A stretch of 20,000 nt of DNA, from IMG/VR virus record IMGVR_UViG_3300050821_005794. One strand, given 5' to 3'. The DNA is from an uncultured virus (IMG/VR IMGVR_UViG_3300050821_005794) (taxonomy: Duplodnaviria; Heunggongvirae; Uroviricota; Caudoviricetes). The notes under the pieces were generated by a model, which had not been told where the DNA came from, ran no database searches, and worked only from the letters and a program-made list of their open reading frames with translations. Shown here one piece after another: positions 3,542 to 19,557 of this stretch. A program made the position numbers and the translations under genes. The first letter of the stretch is position 1, and every line of letters begins with the position of its first letter.

Positions 3542-4300
3542 TCAATAAACAGAAGATGGCATCTGCCCACTACCAAATCCTGGTCCTAAAGGTAGATTTG
3601 TATTGCCACCGCCAAGACTATTGCCGAGACTACTACCCAATGACGCACCAAGCGGGCCGCCTAATGCTGCCCCGCCAATTGCGCCTATCGCTCCCATTAC
3701 CGGGGCCATCCAACTAGAATTTGCTTGTTGAATTTGCGTCGCGCCTTCCATTGAAGAACTGGCCGCACCTGTAGCCGCGTTTTCACTTCCTGAAACCGCG
3801 CCACCGAACCCGGAACTGGCACCGGCTAGTCCTTCTGCTCCGCCGACCAATTCACCTATTGCCGTGTTGAAATTCTGGCGACCAGTTGCGTAATTAGCTT
3901 GTGTAATATTTTCTTGCTGGTTGGCGTTAGCTATCGCACCTTGTGTGTTGACCATCTCGCCAATCTGTTGGTTGGCCCCGCTAGGAACGAATGCACCGCC
4001 TCCGCCAGCGGCAGCTTCTTTAGCGTTGGCTGCGATTTGGGCGTTCTGGGTGCCTTGTGTGATAGCATCCGAAGCCTGGGTTCGCATTGCGGCTTCTTCT
4101 GGCGCGGAAAATCCCGTTTGGTTAGGCCCGGCGCTGATAATTGGTTCCAGCGCAGTTTTAAGCGACCCTAAAATGGCTTGATTTTGCCCAAAAATAGTCG
4201 CGAAATCTTGGGCCATCAAATTTGTAAAGTTCATCGAGGCAGTAGCGTTGGCTGCTTCTGCTGATTGCGCCGCATTTTGGGCGTCTGAGGCTCCACAGAT
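3542..4300 (-). CDS. Small internal virion/pilot-type protein, probable ATC start (252 aa)
   Basis: The track ORF 3542..4234 extends in frame to ATC at 4300, 7 nt after AGAGGG, giving (M)CGASDAQNAAQ. Ala/Gly/Gln-rich, with a C-terminal glycine zipper (MGAIGAIGGAALGGPLGASLG). Confidence 0.7.
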   Translation of the reverse strand: MCGASDAQNAAQSAEAANATASMNFTNLMAQDFATIFGQNQAILGSLKTALEPIISAGPNQTGFSAPEEAAMRTQASDAITQGTQNAQIAANAKEAAAGGGGAFVPSGANQQIGEMVNTQGAIANANQQENITQANYATGRQNFNTAIGELVGGAEGLAGASSGFGGAVSGSENAATGAASSSMEGATQIQQANSSWMAPVMGAIGAIGGAALGGPLGASLGSSLGNSLGGGNTNLPLGPGFGSGQMPSSVY

Positions 4301-4304
4301 AGAA

Positions 4305-4727
4305 TTACCCTCTTTCTGCTAAATTTAAGTTACAAACAATCTCATTTTTGCTTCGGCGAAATCCAAACTTACGTAAAAACCAAATCAGAGGTGCAGAGAT
4401 GGATTCAAAAATCAACTGAGCGTACTGGGGTCTGGCTTCTTGCTTAATATGGTTGATAAATTCAGCCATAGCCTTCCTTGTTCTGGCGATTTCCGTTGGC
4501 GGCGCAAACTGACAGTGGATTCTGAGGATATTTTCCATTTTGAGGTACCCAATTGTGCCGATTTCGTCTTCTACAGCAACGTAATCTGTGCCTTTGTGTT
4601 TTTGACTTACGTCTTTCGGAGGCAACCAGAAAGAAAGATTCGATGTTTTCGAGTGTTCGTCGTCCGCGACTAGCCATTTTTCCAGCAAAAGTTCATCGTT
4701 GACCGCGATGGGTCTGAATTTGAGCAT
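4305..4727 (-). CDS. GNAT-fold acetyltransferase-like protein (140 aa)
   Basis: N-terminal FRPIAVND, central VAVEDEIGTIGY and C-terminal WFLRKFGFR fit a GNAT pattern. SD AAGAGA. Sits just upstream of the internal virion genes, as in other podoviruses. Confidence 0.6.
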   Translation of the reverse strand: MLKFRPIAVNDELLLEKWLVADDEHSKTSNLSFWLPPKDVSQKHKGTDYVAVEDEIGTIGYLKMENILRIHCQFAPPTEIARTRKAMAEFINHIKQEARPQYAQLIFESISAPLIWFLRKFGFRRSKNEIVCNLNLAERG

Positions 4728-4729
4728 AT

Positions 4730-4966
4730 TTATCTCTTAAAAGAATGAAAAGCATCGAAAATAAAGTGTATAAACCCGCCGATACCTAAAGCGGCCCCAC
4801 TGAAGTACCAAATTTTCTTTTCGACGGCCTTCATATCCTTCTGAAGCCTCGGTACGGCCCCGGTTTCGCCATCATCTGAAACCAATAAATCCATTTTGGT
4901 GCCCAATTTCGCAAGATGTGTTAAAACTTGTGTTTCAAACTCATTGTTGCTATGCGTTTCTTCCAT
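4730..4966 (-). CDS. Small membrane protein (coiled coil plus C-terminal TM helix; holin/XhlA-like candidate)
   Basis: 78 aa with SD AGGAGG upstream and a hydrophobic C-terminus IWYFSGAALGIGGFIHFIF followed by a basic tail. Confidence 0.55.
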   Translation of the reverse strand: MEETHSNNEFETQVLTHLAKLGTKMDLLVSDDGETGAVPRLQKDMKAVEKKIWYFSGAALGIGGFIHFIFDAFHSFKR

Positions 4967-4972
4967 AACAAT

Positions 4973-5215
4973 CTAACTTCCTCCTGGCCGGATGCCATTG
5001 CGGAGTGGCGGGGTAATTCTGTATTGCGGGATGCTGTTGGCGTAAAATTGACGCAGAGAATCTGGGTCAGTAGCGAGTGGGGACGGTATGAGACACCTAA
5101 GAAAACCATTTTTGGAGCTTTCCTGCGGGAGTTGGTTCATTACGGGCGTAGCCATTGCAGAATTTGAATCTATTGGCCGCAATTTTGACATGTCGGGTTG
5201 CATGAATTTGCTCAT
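4973..5215 (-). CDS. Hypothetical protein (~80 aa)
   Basis: ATG at 5215 just downstream of the tail-gene stop (MSKFMQPDMSK...). Fills the operon gap. Confidence 0.6.
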   Translation of the reverse strand: MSKFMQPDMSKLRPIDSNSAMATPVMNQLPQESSKNGFLRCLIPSPLATDPDSLRQFYANSIPQYRITPPLRNGIRPGGS

Positions 5216-5220
5216 ATTGA

Positions 5221-8200
5221 CTACGATTCTCCATGGTGCGAGCCATAGACTGTAAACGTAAAAATCTCGTTCCTGACGCCATCTGTAGACCCGAAATCTA
5301 TCTTGACTTGCATGTGCCGCGCCCAAGCAGGCAACGGAACAGCAGGACCGCTGACGCTTTGTTTGAAGTCATAGCGGTTGGAATACAACGTTGCTGGCGC
5401 AAGCGTGGTTCCGTACAAAGCAGGTGGGTCTTGATGAACGTATCCTGAAATACTTTGGAATGGCCCAGAAATTTCGTTGAGCAGCACAGAAAGAACAGGA
5501 CTCGTTCCGACCAAGTTGAAATCACAAGTAATAAATGCCAGTTCGGCTAACTGGCCGGGATAAGCCAAAACGATGCTGCCCATGATGAAGTTGGCCGGAT
5601 AGGTTTTACCGTTGTCCGTAAAAACATTGGCGTTGCGATAGTAAATATACCCGCCGCCTGCTGTGCCTGTATCTGCCGCTGAAGCTTGGTTAGCGTGTGT
5701 AATCGCCGTAGTAAACTGTGTCGGCGTGGCTGATACGATAACTTGGTTAGCTACGTTAAAAATTCCGCTGCCGTTAGTGGTGCCTACGGTAGTAATGATC
5801 TGGCCAACTACGAAGTTATTGTTGGCAGTATAGGTCGCCACATTTGAGGTTAGCGAAGTATTGGTAATAACCGCCGAGCCTGGTCCAACCAAAAGTTGAT
5901 GCACGCCAGGACTAGTTTCGATTGATTGAATAGCCTGCGCACCGCCAGTAATGTTAGCTTTGGGACTCCAAACAAATCCGCCTTCGGGAGCCTGGCTTGT
6001 ATTGCACCTGAACCAACCTGTGCTACCGTCCGAAATGTGAACAGCCTCGTCTTGGTTTGAAGCGTGCCACGTTACGTAAGAATTAGCCGGATTGAAGGAT
6101 TGCAATGTAGGATCGTTCGGATAGGCTGGACACGGTGCGCCAATAGGAAATCCGATTTTAGATATCCCAGAAGTGGGATCAAGCTGTACGAATTGTTTGT
6201 CTGCCGTGTGTGCGTAAATCGTCGTGCCATTCACGTCAGCCGCGAATTGATTGAGCAGTCCAAGATTTTGAATAAACGGTGCAGGATAGAAGACAGTGAT
6301 CCCTGAAACCCCGCTCGCAGCCGCAACCGCCGAACCCGTACCATAAATAATATAAACATCCGAAATCGTAAAAACAAGCAAGCCTACCGAGGTAGGAATT
6401 AACTTGCTGACTTTGGAAGGAAAGACAAAGTTGTTAGCGGGCGACCAGCTTTCGTAAGGATTGCCTAGAATGTTGCCTAAATCGGGGCCAGTAGCGTAAT
6501 AAACAACGTTTGAGACGAAACCCCACATACGCCCCATGTGAAATACCATGCCGCCGATTCCAGTTGGCGGAGGCGTGTTCTGGCCTGCCTGCGCGGGCAA
6601 TTGAAACTGGTTGAGCGTAGCATCCAAGGATTGGTCTACAATCGTGGTTGAAGTATTAGGATAGGGATTCGTAGGCAAGGAATAAAATGTGTTACCGCCG
6701 TCCTTGGTTCGGAAGACCCAGATTGTGTTGACTTGAGGATCGGTACTTGCTACGACGGTTATGTCTACAACCTTGCTAGAAAACGCACCTGTGCTCGCTG
6801 AAGCGGGAGTCATGTTAGAGAAGACTGGCGGCGAGACGTTGGTATTGGCGTAGGCATACCCATATTCATACCCCGTCGTGGCCGAGAGTGCTCCTGAGCC
6901 GCCAACAGAAACAGAAATCCCTGCCGTGAAAACTTGAATTTGAGCCGAGTCTATACTGAAGGTCTGGCCGCTACCGGAAACTACAATCTGAACCCCGAAG
7001 TTACTCGTGTTTATAATAGAAGGATTAAGAGTTGCGCCCCAGACATCCGTGCTGCCACCAAAGGAAATCAGCATGTCTGAAGTGCCAGGCATCAATAATA
7101 ATTTCTGGTTGCCTATGGCGTTACCGTTGTTGTCTTGTAATCGTGCATAAATAAGTGTGTCACCCGCGACCGCTGAAACATGTCCTGTCACGTTAACTTG
7201 AACGCCCGTAACGGTGCCGGAAACGCTGAAGCTATAATTCGTCGCGAACAACGGAGCGGTCTGAAGGTCTGCTGTAGGAATTGTTGTCGCGTACGCCCCA
7301 TCAGGAGCGCCTTGGACATTTGTAGGGTTGGTCCAACTCACGACAACTGGGGATGTGTAGTAGACAGTTACGCTGATATAATCTATGAGAGCTTGTCCGG
7401 TAGCGTGACTCTGAGAAGTGTTGAACTTCGTAGCTACCGCAATACCAAAACCAGAGTTGTTTATATCTGATGGCGCTAGCGTAGCACCCCATAGATCGGA
7501 AGATGATCCCCATGTTTCTGGCGTAATTGACGGAGTATACGCAGTGCCGCCAGTGTGCCCAGTTCCAGATTGAACATTTGCTTTCAGTATTTGAATGGAA
7601 TCTGTAGTTATTGTGCCGCCGGAACCAAGAGACCTGGCCCTATATACATTCGCGACTACCCCCGTAATAGTGGCCGTTGAAGGTATGGCAAACTTAAAAT
7701 TAGTAACATTCAGATAGTTACTACCGTCACTACCTGGACCACCTGTTACGGAAAACGCAGCCGAAGCATAGACCCCATCAAGAACTTCTGCGTTTGTCGG
7801 ATTTGACCAAACTTCGTTGCCATCAGGACCAGATATGCCCGAATCTGTCGCTGAAAATGGAGAACTCGGGCCTTGCGATCCCGAACCGCCTCCGGCTGAC
7901 CCTGAAACGCCCGTTCCGGCGTACGCGCTAGTAAGCGTAATACCTGCCGTAGCAATGCCCCAGTTTCGAAGGGCTACTTGCACGGCTGTGCCTGTATCTG
8001 CCGCTGAACCTACGTTTGCGTGAACTATGGCGACCGTGAATGACGTTGAGTTGGCCGTAGCGATGACAGCATTTGTTACGTTGAAAACACCGCTGCCGTT
8101 TGTTGTGCCTGTTACTGTGACCAAGCGGCCAGCGACAAAGTTGTTAGCCGCAGTATATGTTGCGACGTTGGAAGTCAGGGCGGTGTTGGTTATGATTGCC

Positions 8201-8685
8201 TGACTAGGCGCAAAGCCCGGCCAGGCTAGTTGGTCTACGCCGTCGCCGATATAGAGTGTGTTGTTGATCCCGAAAAACGATGCCTCTCCCGCGCCATTCG
8301 ACTTGGTAAAAATACTCGTAACTTGTGCCGGACTGATCGTATAAATCTGAGTCAGACCATCCATCATGACTTGAATGGTTTCTGAAATCGTAGTAAATGT
8401 TTTGAAGGAATAGAACGAGTTGATGGCCTCGCCTACAGTTTGCAAAGAATACTGGCTGACACCGGGGCGTCTGGAAAGAGTGAGCAAATTCGTAAGTTCG
8501 ATGTTGACGCCAGAAATAATAGCTTCGTTGCGGCCACCGTAATACAGAGTCTCTACGCGGGTGCCCGGAGAACGCAAAGGATTGCGCTGACACCACAGCC
8601 CCGTAAAAAACAGGGAGGTCCATAAAGGAGCGTAGTGTGTTTGTTTTGTATCTTGGCTGCCTGCCTGTTGAAGTGGATTAGGCAT
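5221..8685 (-). CDS. Tail nozzle / DNA-stabilisation protein (P22 gp10 / T7 gp12-like) with inserted beta-rich domains (1154 aa)
   Basis: N-terminal NIELTNLLTLSRRPG, beta-propeller-like segments (FHMGRMWGF, GLLVFT) and position right after the adaptor gene. Contains two copies each of two inserted Ser/Thr/Gly-rich modules. Confidence 0.7.
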   Translation of the reverse strand: MPNPLQQAGSQDTKQTHYAPLWTSLFFTGLWCQRNPLRSPGTRVETLYYGGRNEAIISGVNIELTNLLTLSRRPGVSQYSLQTVGEAINSFYSFKTFTTISETIQVMMDGLTQIYTISPAQVTSIFTKSNGAGEASFFGINNTLYIGDGVDQLAWPGFAPSQAIITNTALTSNVATYTAANNFVAGRLVTVTGTTNGSGVFNVTNAVIATANSTSFTVAIVHANVGSAADTGTAVQVALRNWGIATAGITLTSAYAGTGVSGSAGGGSGSQGPSSPFSATDSGISGPDGNEVWSNPTNAEVLDGVYASAAFSVTGGPGSDGSNYLNVTNFKFAIPSTATITGVVANVYRARSLGSGGTITTDSIQILKANVQSGTGHTGGTAYTPSITPETWGSSSDLWGATLAPSDINNSGFGIAVATKFNTSQSHATGQALIDYISVTVYYTSPVVVSWTNPTNVQGAPDGAYATTIPTADLQTAPLFATNYSFSVSGTVTGVQVNVTGHVSAVAGDTLIYARLQDNNGNAIGNQKLLLMPGTSDMLISFGGSTDVWGATLNPSIINTSNFGVQIVVSGSGQTFSIDSAQIQVFTAGISVSVGGSGALSATTGYEYGYAYANTNVSPPVFSNMTPASASTGAFSSKVVDITVVASTDPQVNTIWVFRTKDGGNTFYSLPTNPYPNTSTTIVDQSLDATLNQFQLPAQAGQNTPPPTGIGGMVFHMGRMWGFVSNVVYYATGPDLGNILGNPYESWSPANNFVFPSKVSKLIPTSVGLLVFTISDVYIIYGTGSAVAAASGVSGITVFYPAPFIQNLGLLNQFAADVNGTTIYAHTADKQFVQLDPTSGISKIGFPIGAPCPAYPNDPTLQSFNPANSYVTWHASNQDEAVHISDGSTGWFRCNTSQAPEGGFVWSPKANITGGAQAIQSIETSPGVHQLLVGPGSAVITNTSLTSNVATYTANNNFVVGQIITTVGTTNGSGIFNVANQVIVSATPTQFTTAITHANQASAADTGTAGGGYIYYRNANVFTDNGKTYPANFIMGSIVLAYPGQLAELAFITCDFNLVGTSPVLSVLLNEISGPFQSISGYVHQDPPALYGTTLAPATLYSNRYDFKQSVSGPAVPLPAWARHMQVKIDFGSTDGVRNEIFTFTVYGSHHGES
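5657..5875 (-). repeat. ~70-aa module, copy in the C-terminal part of the nozzle protein
   Basis: VITNTSLTSNVATYTANNNFVVGQ...NQASAADTGTA. Shares an exact 24-mer (5660-5683 = 7985-8008) with the copy at 7983-8199. Confidence 0.9.
6930..7810 (-). repeat. Two tandem ~140-150-aa beta-rich domains inside the nozzle protein
   Basis: WSNPTNAEVLDGVYA...WGSSSDLWGATLAPSDINNSGFG followed by WTNPTNVQGAPDGAYA...FGGSTDVWGATLNPSIINTSNFG. Boundaries approximate. Confidence 0.8.
7983..8199 (-). repeat. ~70-aa module, copy in the N-terminal part of the nozzle protein
   Basis: IITNTALTSNVATYTAANNFVAGRLVTVTGTTNGSGVFNVTNAVI...NVGSAADTGTA. Confidence 0.9.
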
Positions 8686-8688
8686 GGA

Positions 8689-9621
8689 TTAGGTTTGCAA
8701 ACTCTGTCGCCCTTGCTGGACCTTGATACCTGTTGCCTGTTGTTCTGCAACCATCGAGAGCCACGCAGCTTGAAAAATGTTGCGCTCCTCGTCCTTAAGG
8801 CCTTCAGCAATTCCCAACAGCGCGGCTACGAATTTCTGACTTGTGGGCATCCAGCGCGGATCATTGAAGTAGGCTAGAATTAATGTGAGGAATCCCCATT
8901 GGTAGACGAAGGAGTAGTGATCTGGAATCGGTGCCCATGTTCCGGCCAAGGTTGAAAACAATGCAGGTTGTTTCTTCTGGTAGATTACGTTAATTTGATA
9001 AACTTGATCGGGTACAGGCAAAACACGGAACGTAATATTTCCGGCGTTGTCATCTACTTGTGGCGCGATATACGCAGGTGCCCCAGATTCGTTGCCGCTA
9101 CCCAAGATGTTTCGCTCAAATGAGACTTCTGAAACTTTGCCGGATAGCGCGGTCCCAGTATCGGCGGCAGAGCCTACGTTGGAATTAACAATTGCAACCG
9201 TGAATTGTGTTGGTGACGCACTAGCAATAACTTGGTTCGTTATGTTGAAGACGCCCGCACCGTTTGTCGTGCCTGTCACAGTAACAGTGTTGCCCGCTAC
9301 GAAGGAATTTGCAGCGGTGTAGGTGGCAACGTTGGAGGTTAGACTTGTATTGGTTATGGTTGCCGCTGGAACATACGAGGCTTTCTCAATGAACCCAAAT
9401 GTAGTGACCGCCGTTGCGTAATCTTGTACTCCAATGGTTGCCAGAAAGGAAACGTTCGCTCGATTCCAGTTCCAACAAAACGGCGGTGACAGAATAGTCT
9501 GTTGGATAATGTTCGCAGATGTGATAGCAGGTTCGTTGCCCGCGCCGATATTTAGGCTTAGGAAATCAACATGTGATTGGCTAAAATTTATACTGTTTTG
9601 CAGAGTAATCGTTGAAGCGAT
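8689..9621 (-). CDS. Head-tail adaptor / tail tubular A-like protein, probable ATC start (310 aa)
   Basis: The frame is open 114 codons upstream of the track's GTG (9279) with no ATG/GTG/TTG. SD GAGGTG (9631-9626) precedes ATC at 9621, giving (M)ASTITLQNSINF...PPFCWNWNR...QDYA. The C-terminus has FRVLPVPDQVYQINVIYQ...PIPDHY. Paralog of 11207..12244. Confidence 0.75.
   Translation of the reverse strand: MASTITLQNSINFSQSHVDFLSLNIGAGNEPAITSANIIQQTILSPPFCWNWNRANVSFLATIGVQDYATAVTTFGFIEKASYVPAATITNTSLTSNVATYTAANSFVAGNTVTVTGTTNGAGVFNITNQVIASASPTQFTVAIVNSNVGSAADTGTALSGKVSEVSFERNILGSGNESGAPAYIAPQVDDNAGNITFRVLPVPDQVYQINVIYQKKQPALFSTLAGTWAPIPDHYSFVYQWGFLTLILAYFNDPRWMPTSQKFVAALLGIAEGLKDEERNIFQAAWLSMVAEQQATGIKVQQGRQSLQT
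9148..9360 (-). repeat. ~70-aa module, third copy, inside the adaptor gene
   Basis: TITNTSLTSNVATYTAANSFVAGNTVTVTGTTNGAGVFNITNQVI...NVGSAADTGTA. Confidence 0.9.
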
Positions 9622-9630
9622 GATACACCT

Positions 9631-10470
9631 CTAAGGTCTTAAGGAAGAAAACATGTCGCAGCAGTCTCGTTCGCCAACTGCGATGGTTCCATCTGACTGA
9701 AGCCTGTCTTGAAGTTTTGGGTCTATTCTAACAACCGGATGCGTGCAACCAAGAAGACCATTAATATCTTTGGCCGCGAACTTGCAATGCCAACACTCGC
9801 GTGGCGGAACATTTTCTTCATCCGTAACAAAGCCCGAAGTTGGCGTGCCGTCTTTAAGCGGAGCCGGAGAGCCTTCGCGTTTGTTTGTTAGGGGAATCAC
9901 TCCTGCCGAAGTGAACATTAGAACGCCACTAGGATAGACTAATCCTTCATACCCGACTTGGCCTTCGGATTTAGAGTTGAATGTGTTGTGTAAAAATGAT
10001 ACGGTTGAGCCGTGGCCAACGATTAGAATAGGTTTGTTCAACTTCTGAACAATTGCAGCCACATCATCAAAGAATTTAGCCTGTCGATTGTCAAACTGGT
10101 TGAGTGATTCGCCGCCAGGAATCTTGAGTGAGCGGTTCTTGATGTACTTGTCTAGGGGATAGTCGGCTTTGGATTTGCCTGTAAAATCTCCAACATTCAG
10201 GGGCCGCAAGCGCTTGTCTACGTGGCTTTCGCGAATGTCTAGAATACTTTGCAAAATTTCGCGAGTTTCTTTTGAGCGGTCTAGATCATCCGAGATAATT
10301 AGCGGGAACTTTATGCCGGTACCTTGCAGGAACAATGCTGATTGGCGGATTCCGTCGCGGCCTTCGGGCGTTAGCTGTGCGTCTGGACCGTTCGACCAGC
10401 TACGATAGGTATTGGCTTGGTTTCCGCCAGTTTTTCCGTGGCGAACTAAAAACATAATTGGGTTTATGAT
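9631..10470 (-). CDS. Histidine phosphatase (phosphoglycerate mutase-like) family protein with a C-terminal Cys-rich domain
   Basis: LVRHG, LTPEG, SDDLDRS, PGGESL and IVGHG motifs; C-terminal ECWHC...GCTHP...DCC. Start is either ATG 10455 or ATC 10470 (after GGGGGT). Confidence 0.85.
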   Translation of the reverse strand: MINPIMFLVRHGKTGGNQANTYRSWSNGPDAQLTPEGRDGIRQSALFLQGTGIKFPLIISDDLDRSKETREILQSILDIRESHVDKRLRPLNVGDFTGKSKADYPLDKYIKNRSLKIPGGESLNQFDNRQAKFFDDVAAIVQKLNKPILIVGHGSTVSFLHNTFNSKSEGQVGYEGLVYPSGVLMFTSAGVIPLTNKREGSPAPLKDGTPTSGFVTDEENVPPRECWHCKFAAKDINGLLGCTHPVVRIDPKLQDRLQSDGTIAVGERDCCDMFSSLRP

Positions 10471-11204
10471 GGCCGACCCCCGATAACGGAGTGTTTGTAG
10501 ATTTTTGAAATGTGGGACAAGAAATAATCTTTGGACCAAATACGCTTCATAAAATTGCACGTATTGCAGCACGGGGCCACATTATCTGTGCGGTATCCTA
10601 TTTCGTTATTGATCCGGTCTACTCCATTGTAGGTAAAAGAACCATTTGATTGGCGGGAATATTCTGTTGATGGCGGGATACCGCAGTAGACGCAACAGCG
10701 AGTGACGATATTGAAAAACTGTTCATCCGATAAATCCCACTCTAAACCACGTTTGGTTGCTTCTCGTTTATAGCGTCCGATTACTCTATTTTTAGCAGCT
10801 ACTCCGAGACCCGCAGTTCGCTGTTCTTTTTGTAAGCATCCGCAACTTCTAGTATTACCAAGAAGATGTGGAAGTGCGACGGTTGTTATATTTCCGCAAT
10901 CGCACTTACAAAGATACATCTGTCCTTTAGTCTTGCTGTAGCCCAGAAAAGCGGTCGCCAATAATCGGCCATTTCTGTAGCCTGACCAATCCTTTTCGGG
11001 GAACTTCTCGCACTTACAACTTTTGACGCAGACATTTCCTTTTCGAATGTTTCCTGGTCGCGCAGTTGTTTCTTCGCCGCAATTTTTACATTTTACAATC
11101 CATGTAGTTAGAAATCCTGTCGGAGTCTTAAAGGGAATTCCTTTTTTGACAACAACGAGATTATCCTTTATAGGATAGTTTTGAAAATTAGGTGTTAAAC
11201 GCAT
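10464..11204 (-). CDS. Free-standing HNH homing endonuclease
   Basis: CKCDCG...SCGCL zinc modules, then CVYCG...YNGVDRINNEIGY...NVAPCCNTCNFMK. Likely ATG at 11204, directly after the upstream stop. Confidence 0.85.
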   Translation of the reverse strand: MRLTPNFQNYPIKDNLVVVKKGIPFKTPTGFLTTWIVKCKNCGEETTARPGNIRKGNVCVKSCKCEKFPEKDWSGYRNGRLLATAFLGYSKTKGQMYLCKCDCGNITTVALPHLLGNTRSCGCLQKEQRTAGLGVAAKNRVIGRYKREATKRGLEWDLSDEQFFNIVTRCCVYCGIPPSTEYSRQSNGSFTYNGVDRINNEIGYRTDNVAPCCNTCNFMKRIWSKDYFLSHISKIYKHSVIGGRPS

Positions 11205-11206
11205 GA

Positions 11207-12244
11207 CTAGAAGATCATCCAAGGGAGCTGGAAAGGCCAAGCGGGGCCAGGGTATAGACCCCCGACGGTAGGTTCTATGACACCTCGGGACGGGTAGAAA
11301 CCGGAATTATCGCGCTCGCGATCACCCTGCATCTTGGCATTCATCAGACTTTCTTTCCACATTCTGTACTGATCCTGAAATTTTCCCCGAACACCTTTGT
11401 CTGTTGAGTGGCTGTACGCCAAAGCTACGAATCCATCCTTGAAATACTTGATGAAATCGTCAGGTATGGGTTCTAGCGTTTGGTTGAACGATGTGAATAG
11501 CCCGTTAGAGAACGCGAATGGTCTGTACTGAGCGAATAAATTAAATTGGTAGACAACTCCTACTTGCGGCGGAATAGGATAGCAGCGAATGCCTTGGCCT
11601 TTGGGGTTGATCGCCGTCCAAATGACTGTTCCGTCTGTTACGGTTGTAGCGACCGTGTTGGGACTGTTCTGTGTGGGATATGCCAATGTTATGGGCCACG
11701 AAGGTTGGCTGCCCCCAGTAATTCCGTACCCTGTAACCGACCAAAAGTTACCATTAGGGTCCTGAATTTGAAGGATAGGATTTGCCGGAGTAACAGTTAC
11801 GCCAATCGGACTCAGAATTTGTACATTCGCGCCGGGCCACACGGAGTACTGAAGCTGATCATTTGGCAGCCACGAGACTTGGCCAGGGATTCCATACTGT
11901 GCCGAAGTCATCATCAAGTCTTTGACAACTTCGATAGGCCAGATAGGTTTGGGCAGGGCCGTATTGTTTATATCTATTAATGCACCGTTCTCTAGCCAGC
12001 CAAGATTGACAACATTTAGAGCGTAGTCTTGCTGCCACGAATTCGTATACACCAGAGGCAATTTGAACCTATTCCACTTCCAGTTGAAAACTTGTGCAAT
12101 AATTTCAGTCATCGTATCATTACAGATACTCAGCACTGGGCCTAGCGTAGCCCCGCCAGCAGGAACTTGCAGAAAGGGCGCAATTTCAGGAAATGACCGC
12201 CCATGAGCAACAATATCTGAAATTTTAACTGTACTATTAGGCAA
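11207..12244 (-). CDS. Head-tail adaptor-like protein, paralog of 8689..9621 (TTG start, ~345 aa)
   Basis: SD AGGGGT then TTG at 12244 (MPNSTVKISD). Shares FNWKWNR...QQDYA...GWLE and IRCYPIPPQ...PIPDDF motifs with the downstream paralog. Has an internal module ending VTDGTVIWTAI. Confidence 0.7.
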   Translation of the reverse strand: MPNSTVKISDIVAHGRSFPEIAPFLQVPAGGATLGPVLSICNDTMTEIIAQVFNWKWNRFKLPLVYTNSWQQDYALNVVNLGWLENGALIDINNTALPKPIWPIEVVKDLMMTSAQYGIPGQVSWLPNDQLQYSVWPGANVQILSPIGVTVTPANPILQIQDPNGNFWSVTGYGITGGSQPSWPITLAYPTQNSPNTVATTVTDGTVIWTAINPKGQGIRCYPIPPQVGVVYQFNLFAQYRPFAFSNGLFTSFNQTLEPIPDDFIKYFKDGFVALAYSHSTDKGVRGKFQDQYRMWKESLMNAKMQGDRERDNSGFYPSRGVIEPTVGGLYPGPAWPFQLPWMIF

Positions 12245-16073: not shown

Positions 16074-16095
16074 TAGGACTCCATTGTGGTATAAT
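16067..16095 (+). promoter_or_regulatory. Consensus sigma70 promoter for the inverted HNH gene
   Basis: TTGACA (16067-16072), 17 nt, TATAAT (16090-16095) with a TGn extension. Confidence 0.85.
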
Positions 16096-16116
16096 ACTCT
16101 ACTATTGAGGCTTACG

Positions 16117-16743
16117 ATGGCTAAGAAACGCGGTAAATGCAAAGATATGAGTGGTGAGCGCCACAACCGCTTACTTATTTTATGGCGGTGGTATGATCCT
16201 ACTAGCAAACGAGCTAGATGGTTGTGTCTGTGTGATTGTGATAACTATATTGTTGCGACAGGCAAAGATGTTCGCCAAAGAAAAGTTCAGAGTTGTGGTT
16301 GTCTGCGAAGTGAAATGTCTGCCGAAAGAGCTAAAAAGAACTCGGTTCTGAATACATTACCAGCAGGAGAAATGGCTTTCAACCAACTTTTCACAAACTA
16401 TAAATTTCATGCTGGCAAAAGAGACCTACCATTTGTGCTGTCGCGAGAGGAATTCAAAATTCTTACGAAAGGGGACTGTTTTTATTGTGGGGCGGCCCCA
16501 TCTCAATGGTATCATCGCGGCCACAAAAGCGGTTCGTACATTTACAATGGTATAGACAGGTTAATAAATTCCGAAGGATATTATCTAAATAACTGCGTTC
16601 CTTGTTGCGGTGTTTGTAATGATATGAAAAGAACACGTTCGGAATCGGGCTTCATAAAAGCATGTCAAGCTGTCGTAGAACATCAGAAGAGGAGAGCCGA
16701 AGAATTGTTCCGACTCTCCCTCCCTAAAATTGCTACTGCTTAA
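16117..16743 (+). CDS. Free-standing HNH homing endonuclease, convergent with the capsid gene
   Basis: SD GAGG then ATG 16117. CLCDCD...SCGCL and CFYCG...YNGIDRL...NCVPCCGVCNDMK motifs. Its stop overlaps the capsid stop (TTAA 16740-16743). Same architecture as 10464..11204. Confidence 0.85.
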   Translation: MAKKRGKCKDMSGERHNRLLILWRWYDPTSKRARWLCLCDCDNYIVATGKDVRQRKVQSCGCLRSEMSAERAKKNSVLNTLPAGEMAFNQLFTNYKFHAGKRDLPFVLSREEFKILTKGDCFYCGAAPSQWYHRGHKSGSYIYNGIDRLINSEGYYLNNCVPCCGVCNDMKRTRSESGFIKACQAVVEHQKRRAEELFRLSLPKIATA

Positions 16744-16977: not shown

Positions 16978-17097
16978 ATCAATATAGCGCAAACGTTGGG
17001 TTGTATCGGGTGGTAAACTAGCAGTGAAGTGAACACGGTAGCTAGTCCAGCCGGGTATCAAACCAGACGGATCGGCTACGCTTAAGGGTGCATTTTG
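16978..17097 (-). CDS. Major capsid protein exon (40 codons)
   Basis: QNAPLSVADPSGLIPGWTSYRVHFTASLPPDTTQRLRYID; the DP...GW motif matches the C-terminus of N4-gp56-like capsids. Confidence 0.85.
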
Positions 17098-17312
17098 CCG
17101 GAATTGTTACCGCTTTCGCGGGATCAGTCATTTCTGCTGATCTCTCATAGTTGTGTTCCCATGAGAGCAGACTATCGCATCATCCCGAAGGATGTTCTCT
17201 CGCTTAGTCGTTCACGGTGCTTTCGCTTCCGCCTTGTTTGCATTTCAGCATCCAAGTCAATTAGAGAGAATTATCTACTGACGGATTACGCCATCAGGAG
17301 TCCATTTAATTG
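17098..17312 (-). ncRNA. Group I intron D in the capsid gene, ORF-less, 215 nt
   Basis: P1 AGUU|CA...UGGACU; P3 UUCUCUC/GAGAGAA; P7 ACGACUA/UAGUCU; UUCG-capped P8; ends in G. Clearly homologous to intron E. Confidence 0.9.
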
Positions 17313-17557
17313 AACTACGTTGCACTCTATGTTCCTCCAGTTACCGTCATTAATCGCGTTGTCACCACGTCCGCCAAGGCGAACTGCAATGACACCGTCT
17401 TTACCGAAAATATAAGTCCGGTACGCGACCACGCCAGACGAACTCTGATACGAAGAAGTCAACGTAACAAGGTTCGACTGGAAGAAAGCCACGCCCGACG
17501 CGGGGAATTCAAGTGTGTCGGCCAGGTCGATAGAAACGAGGTCGTCCATACGTTGTA
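17313..17557 (-). CDS. Major capsid protein exon (245 nt)
   Basis: (L)QRMDDLVSID...GVAFFQSN...YRTYIFGKDG...IECNVV; corresponds to track ORF 17286..17549. Confidence 0.88.
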
Positions 17558-18532
17558 CAATTGTATTTTAAGATGCCGCCATCTCTGACGGCTCGCTCTC
17601 ACGGTTGCCCGCGAGTTTAGACTGTATCATCTTTACTGAAGAGATTTGAAGAGTTTAGCCCGTTTTTCGTTGTTGTGTTCCCCGCTCATTCGTAAAAATT
17701 GGAGAACAACATTAGCATTATGCTTTTTGATTACCAAATACGGAAGCATGTTCAAGATAAACTTCTCTTGATTCGGTGCCCCATAGATAGCCCAATCATA
17801 TTGTTTTTTGTGTATCTCACTTCGTTTGCGGGGATAAATTGATCCTCCGTAAATAGATTTAAGATACCGAATGATCGGTTCAAAGGTGTTGGTGGCGCTT
17901 ACTTCTACGACGTAATGGTTGCCCCACTTCTCATCGCGGCACTTAATTGTGAATGTGCCTTCTGCGTCTGCCAAACCAGCATAATAGGCGTTAACTAAAT
18001 TCTGTTTTTCAGGAAAGTTTAGCGTTTCAGTCGTTACGGAGTCTTTGTGATTCGCACTGTAGCAACGAGTATACAATTCAAATCTCTTTTCGGGATTCTT
18101 TTTGCCGTTTAGGGCATAGTATTCCCGAAAGATTTTGGCTTGCTCTCTTTTTTGCTGCAAATACGGAATAATTAAGGACAGAACCCAATCTGAATGCTTG
18201 GCACCTTGCGGCGACCAAACATAGCTAGTTTTGTGTTCATCCGTAGCATCTCTGCCAATCGACCACGACCCCCCGAAATGCTTAACTAGCCACTTCATTA
18301 TGGGTAGATACGTGTTATAAATATGGAAGTCTGCTACGTACTGGCTGCATCCATTGCTATCCTCGCCGTGGCGGATATAAAGACTTCCGTCGCCGTCAAT
18401 AAGACCTGCAATGTACGCTTTAGTTTTATCCTTCACTAAGATTTCCTCGGTATTGTCTTCTATCATTAGATGCTTCCTACTGTAGAAGGGTTTCACCGAT
18501 ATAGCTAAATTTATTCAGGGCTACTTTTGTTA
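17558..18532 (-). mobile_element. Group I intron C (975 nt) with a double-motif LAGLIDADG ORF
   Basis: P1 CAGGGU|...GCCCUG; P10 GUA/UAC; P3 UUUAGC/GCUAAA; P4 UAUCGGUGAA/AAUACCGAG; P7 ACGACUG/CAGUCU; ends CAAUUG. Confidence 0.9.
17633..18436 (-). CDS. Intron-encoded LAGLIDADG homing endonuclease, two motifs (~267 aa)
   Basis: YIAGLIDGDG and YYAGLADAEG motifs, each followed by a PYL..K motif. Probable GTG start at 18436 after GAGGA. Confidence 0.92.
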   Translation of the reverse strand: MKDKTKAYIAGLIDGDGSLYIRHGEDSNGCSQYVADFHIYNTYLPIMKWLVKHFGGSWSIGRDATDEHKTSYVWSPQGAKHSDWVLSLIIPYLQQKREQAKIFREYYALNGKKNPEKRFELYTRCYSANHKDSVTTETLNFPEKQNLVNAYYAGLADAEGTFTIKCRDEKWGNHYVVEVSATNTFEPIIRYLKSIYGGSIYPRKRSEIHKKQYDWAIYGAPNQEKFILNMLPYLVIKKHNANVVLQFLRMSGEHNNEKRAKLFKSLQ

Positions 18533-18611
18533 ACCCTGGTACAGTGTGTTTTAAGATATCTACCGCAGAGTTATTGCTAGAATCGTTAAGCAAATCGCCA
18601 ACGGTGAAAGG
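18533..18611 (-). CDS. Major capsid protein exon (79 nt)
   Basis: PFTVGDLLNDSSNNSAVDILKHTVPG plus 1 nt; completes the GVIH|P motif. Confidence 0.88.
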
Positions 18612-19319
18612 TAATTGTGTTTGTAGTCCCGATTTAGATAGGCGCGACCAAATTATGGGTTGTGTTAGTTAAATCGTCACAGATCGTTGCTGTGCCCCGA
18701 TTCACATCGGGGGCGCTCTCGTCCTTGCGGGCGAGTTCAGACTCTATCTTCTGTTCATTTTGTGAACAGTCTAGCGTATTAGTCGTTACGGAGTCTCCAC
18801 GTTTATTGAGGCTGGATAAACGAAGTCTGAGTTCTTCTCGTTTTTCAGGATTAGTTCGCTCCCCGTACATAGAGATGCGAATATATTCCAAGAGGATTTT
18901 CGCCTGTTCATCTTTAATAACGAGATACGGCAGAACCCCAAGAAGTACTTTTTCCAGATTCTTCGCTCCCTTGGGCCGCCAATCATATTCTACTTTGTGG
19001 ACTGTGGACCTTCGGGATTTTGTATAGTAAACACCGCCAAAATTCTTAATGAGCCACTTCATCAACTTTTCGTTTGTATTATAAACGCTGAGTCTGTGAT
19101 TCATCATCCAGTAATCCGTATTCAAATACTTACGGGTTTTCTGTAATCGGCGGTAAATACTAATACAACCTTCACCATCAATAAGGGCGGCCAGATACGA
19201 CCATTTTGTTTTATCGTTTGTCATTTGGAGTTTCCTCGGTATTGCCTTTCAACTTAGATGCTAACTTGGTTGAAAGGGTTTCACCGATTTAGTTAGATTT
19301 TACATCCACCATTTCATTA
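18612..19319 (-). mobile_element. Group I intron B (708 nt) with a single-motif LAGLIDADG ORF; terminal nucleotide A
   Basis: P1 CAUCCAU|...GUGGAUG; P10 UGAAAUG/CCUUUCA; P4 AUCGGUGAA/AAUACCGAG; R CCGUAACGACUAAU; S AAGAUAGAGUCUGA; ends CACAAUUA. Confidence 0.88.
18634..19224 (-). CDS. Intron-encoded LAGLIDADG homing endonuclease, single motif (196 aa)
   Basis: YLAALIDGEG, KNFGG and LPYLVIK motifs; SD GAGGA. The C-terminal ~55 aa are encoded by the ribozyme core and P9 region. Confidence 0.92.
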   Translation of the reverse strand: MTNDKTKWSYLAALIDGEGCISIYRRLQKTRKYLNTDYWMMNHRLSVYNTNEKLMKWLIKNFGGVYYTKSRRSTVHKVEYDWRPKGAKNLEKVLLGVLPYLVIKDEQAKILLEYIRISMYGERTNPEKREELRLRLSSLNKRGDSVTTNTLDCSQNEQKIESELARKDESAPDVNRGTATICDDLTNTTHNLVAPI

Positions 19320-19557
19320 ATGGATGACTCCGGCCATTAAACTTTCTGCCTCGTTGAAGGGCAGCACTGCTCGGCCACCGAGTGATTGAACTTGTGCGCG
19401 AATATTGGATAGCGCCAAGGACGTGCCGCCAGCAATCTTTACGGAAACCGCACTGTCGATGCTGTTAGCACCATCAGCTACGGCTCGTACGATTGCGGAC
19501 AGGGTTTGTCCAAGACGATAACTAAGTTCGCGGCCAACGTTCTCTACAACTGGATCA
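19320..19557 (-). CDS. Major capsid protein exon (238 nt), N4-gp56-like
   Basis: Manual translation DPVVENVGRELSYRLGQTLSAIVRAVADG...MAGVIH. The DP.....L......T pattern and IHP motif recall N4-gp56-family capsids. Confidence 0.85.

What the first reader, a model, noticed from the sequence alone, without database searches (positions are those of the whole stretch)
4234..10482. Repeated use of ATC as start codon in late genes
Seen: (1) GAGGTG-TATC-ATC at 9621 opens 114 codons with no ATG/GTG/TTG, and these align with the N-terminus of the paralog at 12244 (ASTITLQ vs PNSTVKI; WNWNR vs WKWNR; QDYA in both). (2) AGAGGG-N7-ATC at 4300 gives (M)CGAS, resembling the MC starts of podovirus internal virion proteins; an in-frame stop lies just upstream. 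(3) GGGGGT-N5-ATC at 10470 gives (M)INPIMFLVRHG, though ATG 10455 is an alternative. Neighbouring genes use TTG (12244, 14008) and GTG (14791). Known: AUC/AUU starts are rare and are policed by IF3. Inference: weak start codons may tune the stoichiometry of low-copy virion proteins, or the phage or host has relaxed initiation fidelity.
Basis: partly seen in the sequence, partly recalled or inferred. Interest (0 to 1): 0.75.

Follow-up and report, generated by a model that had tools for sequence, protein, structure and literature searches.

The report
Three ATC start codons in phage
In a soil phage, three neighbouring genes (two virion-module genes and a phosphatase) have ATC exactly where their relatives have a normal start codon, so they most likely start translation at this rare, weak codon, and gene finders cut them short.

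Summary
All genes lie on the minus strand. ATC 9621, ATC 4300 and ATC 10470 each sit at the column where homologs have their start codon.

- **Site 1:** 34 of 37 aligned homologs start there. So do 41 of 52 well-anchored ORFs in related loci.
- **Site 2:** 7 of 7 anchored homologs start there. The closest relative (80% identical) begins MCGSS.
- **Site 3:** a variant at least 90% identical begins MINPLF...RHG at that position.

Each ATC has a well-spaced Shine-Dalgarno sequence and lies within 9 nt of the upstream gene's stop. The downstream canonical codons have no such sequence.

At sites 1 and 2 no canonical start would keep the conserved N-terminus. Site 3 stays ambiguous, because ATG 10455 lies five codons downstream.

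The sequence is identical in a second assembly. Other lineages carry ATC or ATT at homologous starts.

Best reading, about 0.7: genuine, weak AUC initiation helped by the ribosome-binding site and by translational coupling. TAG recoding, a readthrough fusion, sequencing error and gene decay are poorly supported.

Tuning of protein amounts and relaxed fidelity are untested. No expression data exist, and the rest of the genome could not be surveyed.

The parts
9619..9621 (-). Site 1: ATC at the position of the homologs' start codon. A second in-frame ATC lies at 9622-9624.
   Evidence: 34 of 37 homologs begin M/V/L-A-[TSN]-T at this column. 41 of 52 anchored homolog starts project here: ATG 25, TTG 10, GTG 6.
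9626..9631 (-). Shine-Dalgarno GAGGTG, 4 nt before ATC 9621. Its first G is the last base of the upstream TAG.
   Evidence: Duplex with the anti-SD -7.1 kcal/mol at 4 nt.
9631..9633 (-). TAG stop of the histidine phosphatase gene, in the same frame as the site 1 ORF, 9 nt upstream of the ATC.
   Evidence: Sequence. Close relatives have stop and start directly adjacent and in frame, as TAA-NTG.
8689..9621 (-). Adaptor-like virion gene, 310 codons plus stop. It is called as only 196 aa (from GTG 9279) by gene finders.
   Evidence: PF24175 SU10_adaptor at 26.2 bits against a cut-off of 27. 201 homologs, typically about 311 aa. AF2 pLDDT 85. Fold matches to about 200-aa chains of podovirus portal-tail complexes. 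Truncated database calls P0010 and P0184.
4298..4300 (-). Site 2: ATC at the homologs' start codon.
   Evidence: 7 of 7 anchored homolog starts: ATG 5, GTG 2. 9 of 19 fetched homolog proteins begin MCG, among them the closest (P0125, 80% identical).
4308..4313 (-). Shine-Dalgarno AGAGGG, 7 nt before ATC 4300.
   Evidence: -6.3 kcal/mol at 7 nt. The alternative ATG 4234 scores +0.8.
4305..4307 (-). TAA stop of the upstream 140-aa gene (4305-4727), in another frame, 4 nt before ATC 4300.
3542..4300 (-). Gly/Ala/Ser-rich protein of no known family, 252 codons plus stop, beginning (M)CGAS. It is called as 230 aa from ATG 4234.
   Evidence: No Pfam, PHROG or NCBIfam hit. Homolog of Tunturi_3 gp23.
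10468..10470 (-). Site 3: ATC at the homologs' start codon. It ends 1 nt before the HNH gene's TAA (10464-10466).
   Evidence: Close homologs begin M-S-N-P-[IL]-F, nine residues before the R of RHG. P0188, at least 90% identical, begins MINPLFLIARHG.
10476..10481 (-). Shine-Dalgarno GGGGGT, 5 nt before ATC 10470 as read from the sequence.
   Evidence: -9.3 kcal/mol (which counts 4 nt). ATG 10455 scores -1.7 at 16 nt and GTG 10572 scores -1.5.
10453..10455 (-). Alternative canonical start (ATG) of the phosphatase, five codons downstream. It would give MFLVRHG.
   Evidence: Superfamily profiles begin 1-3 residues before it, so it is not excluded.
9631..10470 (-). Histidine phosphatase (His_Phos_1) gene with a Cys-rich C-terminal extension, 279 codons from the ATC.
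   Evidence: PF00300 at 74.3 bits against a cut-off of 21.7. It is conserved directly upstream of the adaptor-like gene in close relatives.
10464..11240 (-). HNH homing-endonuclease gene inserted between the paralog and the phosphatase. Its 3' end overlaps site 3.
   Evidence: PHROG HNH families, E 1.9e-15. Absent at this place in several relatives, for example L007 and L002.
11207..12244 (-). Paralog of the adaptor-like gene, with a TTG start.
   Evidence: Homologs' M aligns with the window's TTG 12244. BLASTP against the site 1 protein, E 3e-9.

Best explanation
The window is the virion module of a soil podophage-like virus distantly related to Acidobacteriota phage Tunturi_3. In three genes the ancestral start codon has become ATC. 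The genes are the adaptor-like gene at 9621, the 'MCGAS' protein at 4300 and, less surely, the histidine phosphatase at 10470.

The most likely mechanism is ordinary bacterial near-cognate initiation. fMet-tRNA reads AUC in the P site with a third-position mismatch. A strong, well-spaced Shine-Dalgarno sequence holds it in place. Ribosomes that have just terminated on the upstream gene, 1-9 nt away, feed it (translational coupling). Output would be low, which would suit a 12-copy adaptor.

Shown here: the positional homology, the ribosome-binding sites, the lack of usable canonical starts at sites 1 and 2, and reproducibility of the sequence.

Inferred, not shown: that AUC is actually used, that Met is the first residue, the expression level, and any sensitivity to IF3.
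For: - Homologs' start codons fall exactly on the ATC. Site 1: 34 of 37 and 41 of 52. Site 2: 7 of 7, and the 80% relative P0125 begins MCGSS. Site 3: P0188 begins MINPLF, and about 15 close loci start nine residues before the R of RHG.
- SD duplexes of -7.1, -6.3 and -9.3 kcal/mol lie 4-7 nt from the ATC. The alternatives ATG 4234, ATG 10455 and GTG 10572 score +0.8, -1.7 and -1.5.
- Site 1's first 114 codons hold 14 of the family's 40 invariant residues. They fold into confident helices and strands, with pLDDT blocks of 80-93. The first canonical codon, GTG 9279, lies inside an inserted 73-aa module.
- The sequence is identical over 10,641 nt in a second metagenome record. Logan contigs of run X2 show 0 differences over site 2 and site 1. 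An X4 contig shows 0 differences over site 3.
- The Ile codon at site 3 persists in diverged strains P0186 and P0187.
- AUY sits at homologous starts in other lineages, each with an SD: L010/L011/L069 ATC, L046 ATT and L045 ATC-ATC.
- In E. coli reporters AUC initiates at 0.1-3% of AUG and yields an N-terminal Met (passages of bioRxiv 10.1101/063800).
Against: - There is no expression, proteomic or ribosome-profiling evidence.
- Sites 1 and 2 are known from one genotype only. All records with ATC there are 100% identical.
- In E. coli AUC gives only 0.1-3% of AUG, which may be too little for an essential virion protein.
- Site 3 has a usable ATG five codons downstream that fits the superfamily's profile starts.
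- SD plus ATC alone is at chance frequency.
- In the survey, ATC at projected starts (6 of 375 ORFs, redundant records included) is barely above the noise of other codons, which reach up to 5 each.
- One further candidate, L020 ATT, dissolved on inspection.
Confidence: 0.7

Rival explanations
1. The downstream canonical codons are the real starts (GTG 9279, ATG 4234, ATG 10455). The proteins are N-terminally shorter in this phage, and the ATC codons are relics.
For: Gene finders call exactly these forms: P0184/P0010 at 196 aa, P0124 at 230 aa and P0185 at 274 aa. For the phosphatase, MFLVRHG begins within 1-3 residues of the family profile starts.
Against: None of the three codons has an SD. 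GTG 9279 would delete 114 residues holding 14 invariant positions and confidently folded elements, and it lies inside a repeated module. ATG 4234 would delete the conserved CGAS...AQNAAQ stretch shared even with Tunturi_3 gp23.
Confidence: 0.12
2. The genes are dead or dying. Start-codon loss in a defective or recently mutated genome means no product is made.
For: All ATC records at sites 1 and 2 are one identical genotype, so the changes could be recent. ATG to ATC is a single base change.
Against: - It needs three hits of the same kind in 6 kb with no frameshift or nonsense anywhere in the 310-, 252- and 279-codon ORFs.
- The genotype is abundant, at about 38x in X2. It is present at 99% identity or more in the independent run X3, and as identical sequence in G001.
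- Strong SDs are retained.
- The site 3 Ile codon persists across diverged strains.
- Other lineages show the same state.
Confidence: 0.08
3. Site 1 is expressed by readthrough of the in-frame TAG as a phosphatase-adaptor fusion, or TAG is recoded in this phage.
For: TAG 9633-9631 is in frame with the ORF. Under TAG=Q the two ORFs merge into 627 aa. L045 likewise has an in-frame TAG three codons before its ATC-ATC.
Against: - The in-frame arrangement is inherited. Relatives have TAA directly followed by ATG, GTG or TTG in frame.
- The phosphatase of relatives ends at the same place.
- None of the 7 longer proteins found is such a fusion, which is weak evidence.
- No tRNA lies in the window or in this genotype's loci.
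- At site 2 the in-frame TAG is not preceded by a gene in that frame.
- In L045 the upstream partner is a different gene.
Confidence: 0.04
4. Assembly or sequencing artefact: the true base is G, giving ATG.
For: These are metagenome assemblies. Site 2 is seen only in the window's contig and in Logan contigs of a run that may be its source.
Against: Sites 1 and 3 are identical in two records from different datasets. An independent X4 contig covers site 3 with 0 differences. Depth is about 38x in X2. Three errors of the same kind falling exactly on start codons are not credible.
Confidence: 0.02

Closest known systems
AUU start codons of E. coli infC and pcnB (IF3-policed near-cognate initiation)
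   Same: A conserved protein starts at an AUH codon with a normal ribosome-binding site. Output is expected to be low and to be discriminated by IF3. That infC and pcnB are the only two confirmed cases in E. coli comes from a passage of bioRxiv 10.1101/063800. The IF3 autoregulation itself is recalled.
   Different: Here the codon is AUC, not AUU. There are three genes within 6 kb of a phage virion module. No link to IF3 or any feedback loop is shown. All three lie 1-9 nt from an upstream stop codon.
Reporter measurements of AUC initiation in E. coli (Hecht et al., bioRxiv 10.1101/063800; passages read)
   Same: AUC supports initiation, at 1-2% or 0.1-3% of AUG, and yields an N-terminal Met. 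This is the mechanism assumed here.
   Different: Those are artificial constructs in E. coli. Here the genes are natural, the host is unknown, and translational coupling is present.
ATC-initiated uORF upstream of hfq in Sinorhizobium meliloti (bioRxiv 10.64898/2026.05.12.723736; passages read)
   Same: A natural bacterial ATC start with a ribosome-profiling peak and a weak reporter signal.
   Different: That is a 19-aa regulatory uORF of unclear role. It is not a full-length conserved protein whose homologs use ATG.
Stop-start translational coupling in phage and bacterial operons (recalled, general knowledge)
   Same: The upstream stop lies 1-9 nt from the start. Relatives of site 1 have TAA-NTG directly adjacent.
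   Different: Coupling is normally described with canonical restart codons. Its ability to rescue an AUC start is inferred here.
ATC start codons in mitochondrial genomes (search listing only)
   Same: ATC is annotated as an initiation codon.
   Different: A different translation system and genetic code, with no Shine-Dalgarno sequence.

Membership tests
Near-cognate (AUU/AUC/AUA/CUG) bacterial start codon | The codon occupies the position of the protein's N-terminus as defined by homologs. | tested here: met
   for all three sites.
Near-cognate (AUU/AUC/AUA/CUG) bacterial start codon | A ribosome-binding site at functional spacing, and no better canonical start that preserves the protein. | tested here: met
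   for the SD energies. for site 1 and for site 2. Site 3 meets this only in part, because ATG 10455 exists.
Near-cognate (AUU/AUC/AUA/CUG) bacterial start codon | The product begins with (f)Met at that codon. | not testable with these tools
   No proteomics. No RNA run is listed.
Near-cognate (AUU/AUC/AUA/CUG) bacterial start codon | Discrimination or regulation by IF3. | not testable with these tools
   Host unknown. The genome outside 26 kb is not available.
Podovirus head-to-tail adaptor (Pfam PF24175 SU10_adaptor), site 1 protein | Match to the family profile above the curated cut-off. | tested here: inconclusive
   The window protein scores 26.2 bits against a cut-off of 27. Most listed homologs carry a precomputed PF24175 hit.
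Podovirus head-to-tail adaptor (Pfam PF24175 SU10_adaptor), site 1 protein | Fold like solved adaptor chains of portal-tail complexes. | tested here: inconclusive
   Foldseek: 9k09_d E 2.2e-4 with TM(target) 0.52, 8zkk_B 0.47, 9nwi_A 0.49 and 7wmp_m 0.54. The chain roles were not verified, and unrelated E1-enzyme hits score alike. The PDB sequence search found nothing.
Histidine phosphatase superfamily branch 1 (PF00300), site 3 protein | Profile match above the cut-off, and an RHG motif near the N-terminus. | tested here: met
   74.3 bits against 21.7. RHG lies at residues 10-12 from the ATC.
Programmed stop-codon readthrough fusion | The fusion is conserved or found as a fused ORF in relatives. 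| tested here: not met
   None of the 7 longer hits is a phosphatase-adaptor fusion. Relatives keep a stop between the two genes.
TAG-recoded phage genetic code | In-frame TAG inside conserved genes, and a suppressor tRNA. | tested here: not met
   TAG ends the phosphatase where homologs end. No tRNA lies in the window or in this genotype's loci. TAG=Q lengthens other genes by only a few codons.

The most novel reading that the evidence does not exclude
AUC, with AUU in sister lineages, is a deliberately used class of start codon in this group of soil phages. On this reading it sets very low or conditionally released expression of particular virion-module genes. One route would be through the state of host IF3 late in infection. 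Another would be a phage or host initiation apparatus with relaxed third-position reading. The three-fold use in one genome and the recurrence at the same genes in other lineages would then be a selected trait and not tolerated decay.
Probability: 0.2. Interest if true: 0.8.

Novelty: new member of a known kind. Interest (0 to 1): 0.55.

Why it matters
Natural protein-coding genes that start at AUC are very rare in bacteria. In E. coli only two non-canonical starts are confirmed, and both are AUU. My three searches of the paper library found no phage case.

Here three sit within 6 kb of one phage, and related phages show the same state at the same genes.

- **Annotation:** standard gene finders truncate or mis-start all three genes. 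The public protein collections hold only the 196-, 230-, 274- and 313-aa forms. A virion adaptor is therefore recorded without its conserved N-terminal third.
- **Biology:** these are natural test cases for how far a strong ribosome-binding site and stop-start coupling can rescue a near-cognate start. They also test whether phages use such codons to set the amount of low-copy virion parts.

Tried and rejected
- **TAG=Q reading.** It merges the phosphatase and adaptor ORFs, but other genes gain only a few codons. Rejected (see rivals).
- **tRNA scans.** The window has 0 tRNAs. Of 60 loci scanned, none of this genotype has a tRNA, and only distant relatives have tRNA clusters.
- **Own genome.** The assembly is not held. 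The 54-kb contig behind L052 is not held. A genome-wide survey of ATC starts, initiation factors and tRNAs was therefore impossible. Only the window plus 5.9 kb of G001 could be read, and G001's extra genes show no further ATC start.
- **Megablast of 8.9 kb against phage records:** no match.
- **Genome-contig scan with the adaptor alignment:** no relative, so no prophage and no host clue.
- **Degenerate DNA patterns across sites 1 and 2 in viral contigs, to catch ATG variants:** only G001 (ATC) for site 1 and nothing for site 2.
- **Sequencing runs:** no RNA holder listed.
- **Laid contigs.** Variant contigs cover site 1 (X2 record 5 with 15 differences, X4 record 22 with 9 differences). The output lists only part of the differences, so I cannot say what they carry at 9619-9621.
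- **PDB sequence search with the adaptor profile:** 0 hits.
- **Rfam at gathering score:** 0 hits.
- **L020 ATT candidate:** dropped, because an ATG with a strong SD lies 11 codons upstream.
- **CTG hits of the survey:** nearly all lie in antisense frames and were dropped.
- **+1 frameshift from the 140-aa gene into site 2.** I considered this from the sequence alone and did not pursue it, because relatives have an independent ATG start there with a stop one codon upstream.

Full report
**What the window is**

All relevant genes lie on the minus strand. The window is part of the virion module of an uncultured soil phage.

- Megablast against phage records finds nothing.
- The only isolated relative is Tunturiibacter phage Tunturi_3, found with the site 1 protein at 31% identity. 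From passages of PMC11924767, it is a 97.6-kb podovirus of an Acidobacteriota host from tundra soil.
- Its gene order matches the window's: structural protein, tail protein ... acetyltransferase, hypothetical protein, lytic tail fibre protein.
- The window is 100% identical to a 54-kb metagenome contig over 13,939 nt. It is also 100% identical to a second record, G001, over 10,641 nt.
- Parts of it occur in seven soil runs of seven studies.

**Site 1 (ATC 9621)**

The sequence reads TAG(9633-9631) AGG TGT ATC ATC GCT. From ATC 9621 the ORF runs 310 codons, and the first ATG/GTG/TTG is GTG 9279, 114 codons in.

The protein has 201 database homologs, typically about 311 aa.

- In an alignment with 37 of them, 34 begin at the column of the window's Ile 9621: 29 M, 4 V and 1 L, followed by A-[TSN]-T-[ILV]. 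The other three are N-terminally shorter calls.
- At the DNA level, 41 of 52 homologous ORFs whose start is pinned by a nearby upstream stop project their start onto this codon (ATG 25, TTG 10, GTG 6).
- Only records of the window's own genotype carry ATC there.
- The first 114 residues hold 14 of the family's 40 invariant positions.
- In an AlphaFold model (pLDDT 85.1, pTM 0.73) they form confident helices and strands.
- GTG 9279 lies inside a 73-aa module that is repeated twice in the next gene. A product from GTG is therefore implausible.

The protein scores just under Pfam's cut-off for SU10_adaptor, at 26.2 against 27 bits. Its model matches about 200-aa chains of podovirus portal-tail complexes with TM 0.47-0.54 on the target. 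I did not verify the roles of those chains. I read it as a head-to-tail adaptor with an inserted domain.

**Site 2 (ATC 4300)**

The sequence AGAGGG-TAATTCT-ATC TGT GGA gives (M)CGAS. An in-frame TAG lies seven codons upstream, and the upstream 140-aa gene ends at TAA 4307-4305 in another frame.

- Homologs in related loci begin ATG TGY GGN (MCGAS, MCGPS, MCGDS) with a stop one codon upstream. Others use GTG or TTG.
- 7 of 7 anchored starts project onto the ATC.
- Among 19 fetched homolog proteins, 9 begin MCG. One of them is the closest, P0125 at 80% identity, which begins MCGSSQQ.
- The database holds the window's protein only as the 230-aa form from ATG 4234. That codon has no Shine-Dalgarno sequence.
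- More distant relatives, Tunturi_3 gp23 among them, carry a 20-40-aa N-terminal extension that ends just before the Cys.

**Site 3 (ATC 10470)**

The phosphatase (PF00300, 74.3 bits) is a conserved gene directly upstream of the adaptor-like gene in the close clade. It is not cargo of the HNH gene.

- Close homologs start M-S-N-P-[IL]-F, nine residues before the R of RHG. That is the position of the window's ATC in I-I-N-P-I-M-F-L-V-R-H-G.
- In the cluster at 90% identity or more, P0188 (279 aa) begins MINPLFLIARHG. P0186 and P0187 are diverged strains called from GTG 10572, and they keep A-I-I-N-P-I-M-F-L-V.
- The Ile codon therefore persists among strains that carry the overlap with the HNH gene. 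A close strain with a different N-terminus has a canonical start at that position.
- ATG 10455, five codons on, would give MFLVRHG. That begins within 1-3 residues of the superfamily's profile starts.
- Site 3 therefore stays ambiguous. The only Shine-Dalgarno sequence, however, serves the ATC.

**Ribosome-binding sites and coupling**

| Codon | SD duplex with the anti-SD (kcal/mol) | Distance to the codon (nt) |
|---|---|---|
| ATC 9621 (site 1) | -7.1 | 4 |
| ATC 4300 (site 2) | -6.3 | 7 |
| ATC 10470 (site 3) | -9.3 | 4 |
| ATG 4234 | +0.8 | 16 |
| ATG 10455 | -1.7 | 16 |
| GTG 10572 | -1.5 | 3 |

Most homolog-anchored canonical starts of the window score -5 to -7 at 3-8 nt in the same call. 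Two of them, ATG 4727 and ATG 8685, score only -2.9 and -2.4.

Each ATC lies close to the upstream gene's stop: 9 nt after it at site 1, 4 nt after it at site 2, and ending 1 nt before it at site 3.

In relatives of site 1 the phosphatase's TAA is directly followed, in frame, by ATG, GTG or TTG. Tight stop-start coupling and the in-frame arrangement are therefore ancestral.

**Controls against over-reading**

- SD plus ATC by itself is at chance level: 18 of 303 ATC on the coding strand against a mean of 16.2 in shuffles.
- I surveyed 4,141 stop-to-stop ORFs from the window and the related loci. In 375 of them at least three homolog starts agree. The codon at the projected start is ATG in 205, GTG in 39 and TTG in 22. 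ATC follows with 6, CTG with 5 and ATT with 4, and the remaining codons have 5 or fewer each.
- The raw ATC count is thus barely above the noise of misprojection.
- On inspection, nearly all CTG cases are antisense frames, and L020 ATT has a good ATG upstream.
- The cases that survive each have an SD and no nearby usable canonical start. They are the window's three sites, L010/L011/L069 (ATC, site 2 family), L046 (ATT, site 2 family) and L045 (ATC-ATC in the paralog family, with GGGGTG and an in-frame TAG three codons upstream).

**Is the sequence right?**

- Sites 1 and 3 are identical in G001, a record from a different dataset.
- Logan contigs of run X2, which may be the source, cover sites 2 and 1 with no differences at about 38x and 31x.
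- An X4 contig covers site 3 with no differences.
- Variant contigs also cover site 1, but the output does not show what they carry at the ATC.

**Rivals**

- **TAG recoding or readthrough.** TAG ends the phosphatase where homologs end. No tRNA was found. None of 7 longer proteins is a fusion.
- **Decay.** It would need three hits of the same kind on start codons with no other lesion, in a genotype that is abundant and seen in several samples.
- **Downstream starts.** These fail for sites 1 and 2, as shown above, but remain open for site 3.

**Mechanism**

The most likely mechanism is ordinary near-cognate initiation at AUC by fMet-tRNA. The SD stabilises it, and terminating ribosomes feed it.

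In E. coli, AUC gives 1-2% of AUG in one construct and 0.1-3% in another, with an N-terminal Met (passages of bioRxiv 10.1101/063800). A natural ATC-initiated uORF has been reported in S. meliloti (passages).

Low output would fit a 12-copy adaptor. That copy number is recalled for podovirus adaptors and was not tested here. 16 of the 41 anchored homolog starts of this gene already use GTG or TTG.

Whether the weak codon is selected for dosage, is tied to IF3, or is merely tolerated cannot be decided here.

**What is missing**

There is no expression evidence of any kind. The host is unknown. About two thirds of the genome, tRNA and factor genes included, could not be read. The supplements of the papers were not consulted.

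Noticed in passing
window 17041-19556 (minus strand), continuing beyond 20000 into G001 (L087 4784-5113): The major capsid gene is in five pieces. A relative's uninterrupted 317-aa protein aligns to L087 4784-5113 and to window 19556..19320, 18611..18522, 17558..17310 and 17097..17041. Three of the four intervening stretches carry LAGLIDADG endonuclease ORFs: 19630 to beyond 20000, 18634..19224 and 17633..18496. Group I intron matches are only weak (E 0.005 and 0.062, below the gathering score), and there are none at the gathering score.
   Followed up: partly
window 10464-11240 (-) and 16084-16743 (+): There are two free-standing HNH endonuclease genes. The first sits between the paralog and the phosphatase, and its last codons overlap site 3. 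Strains with the HNH overlap share the N-terminus IINPIMFLV. A close strain, P0188, has MINPLFLIA. The ATC at site 3 may therefore have travelled with the endonuclease's flank.
   Followed up: partly
window 9144-9365 (adaptor residues 86-159), and inside 5221-8685: A 73-aa module of the adaptor-like protein is repeated twice in the downstream 1154-aa protein, at residues 163-235 (79% identical) and 937-1014 (67%).
   Followed up: partly
window 3542-4300, and relatives (P0128, P0132, P0134-P0138; L051 23434-24165): The site 2 family has two forms. A short one begins MCG[AP]S. A long one has a 20-60-aa N-terminal extension that ends just before the same Cys-Gly. This hints at removal of a propeptide to expose an N-terminal Cys. 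It was not tested.
   Followed up: no
window 9631-9870: The virion-module histidine phosphatase has a C-terminal extension rich in Cys and His (CWHC...GCTHP...CC) beyond the Pfam domain. It is conserved next to the adaptor-like gene in close relatives. Its role is unknown.
   Followed up: no
L045 10649-10668: A distant relative has TAG-CCGGGGTGC-ATC-ATC-GCC at the start of its paralog-family gene. It shares the 13-mer GGTGYATCATCGC with the window's site 1. Apart from records of the window's own genotype, it is the only one of the 88 loci with this 13-mer. Whether this is convergence, ancestry or exchange is undecided.
   Followed up: partly
window 12244 and 14008: Two further homolog-anchored starts in the window are TTG where most relatives have ATG. 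Of about ten anchored starts in this phage, five are not ATG.
   Followed up: partly
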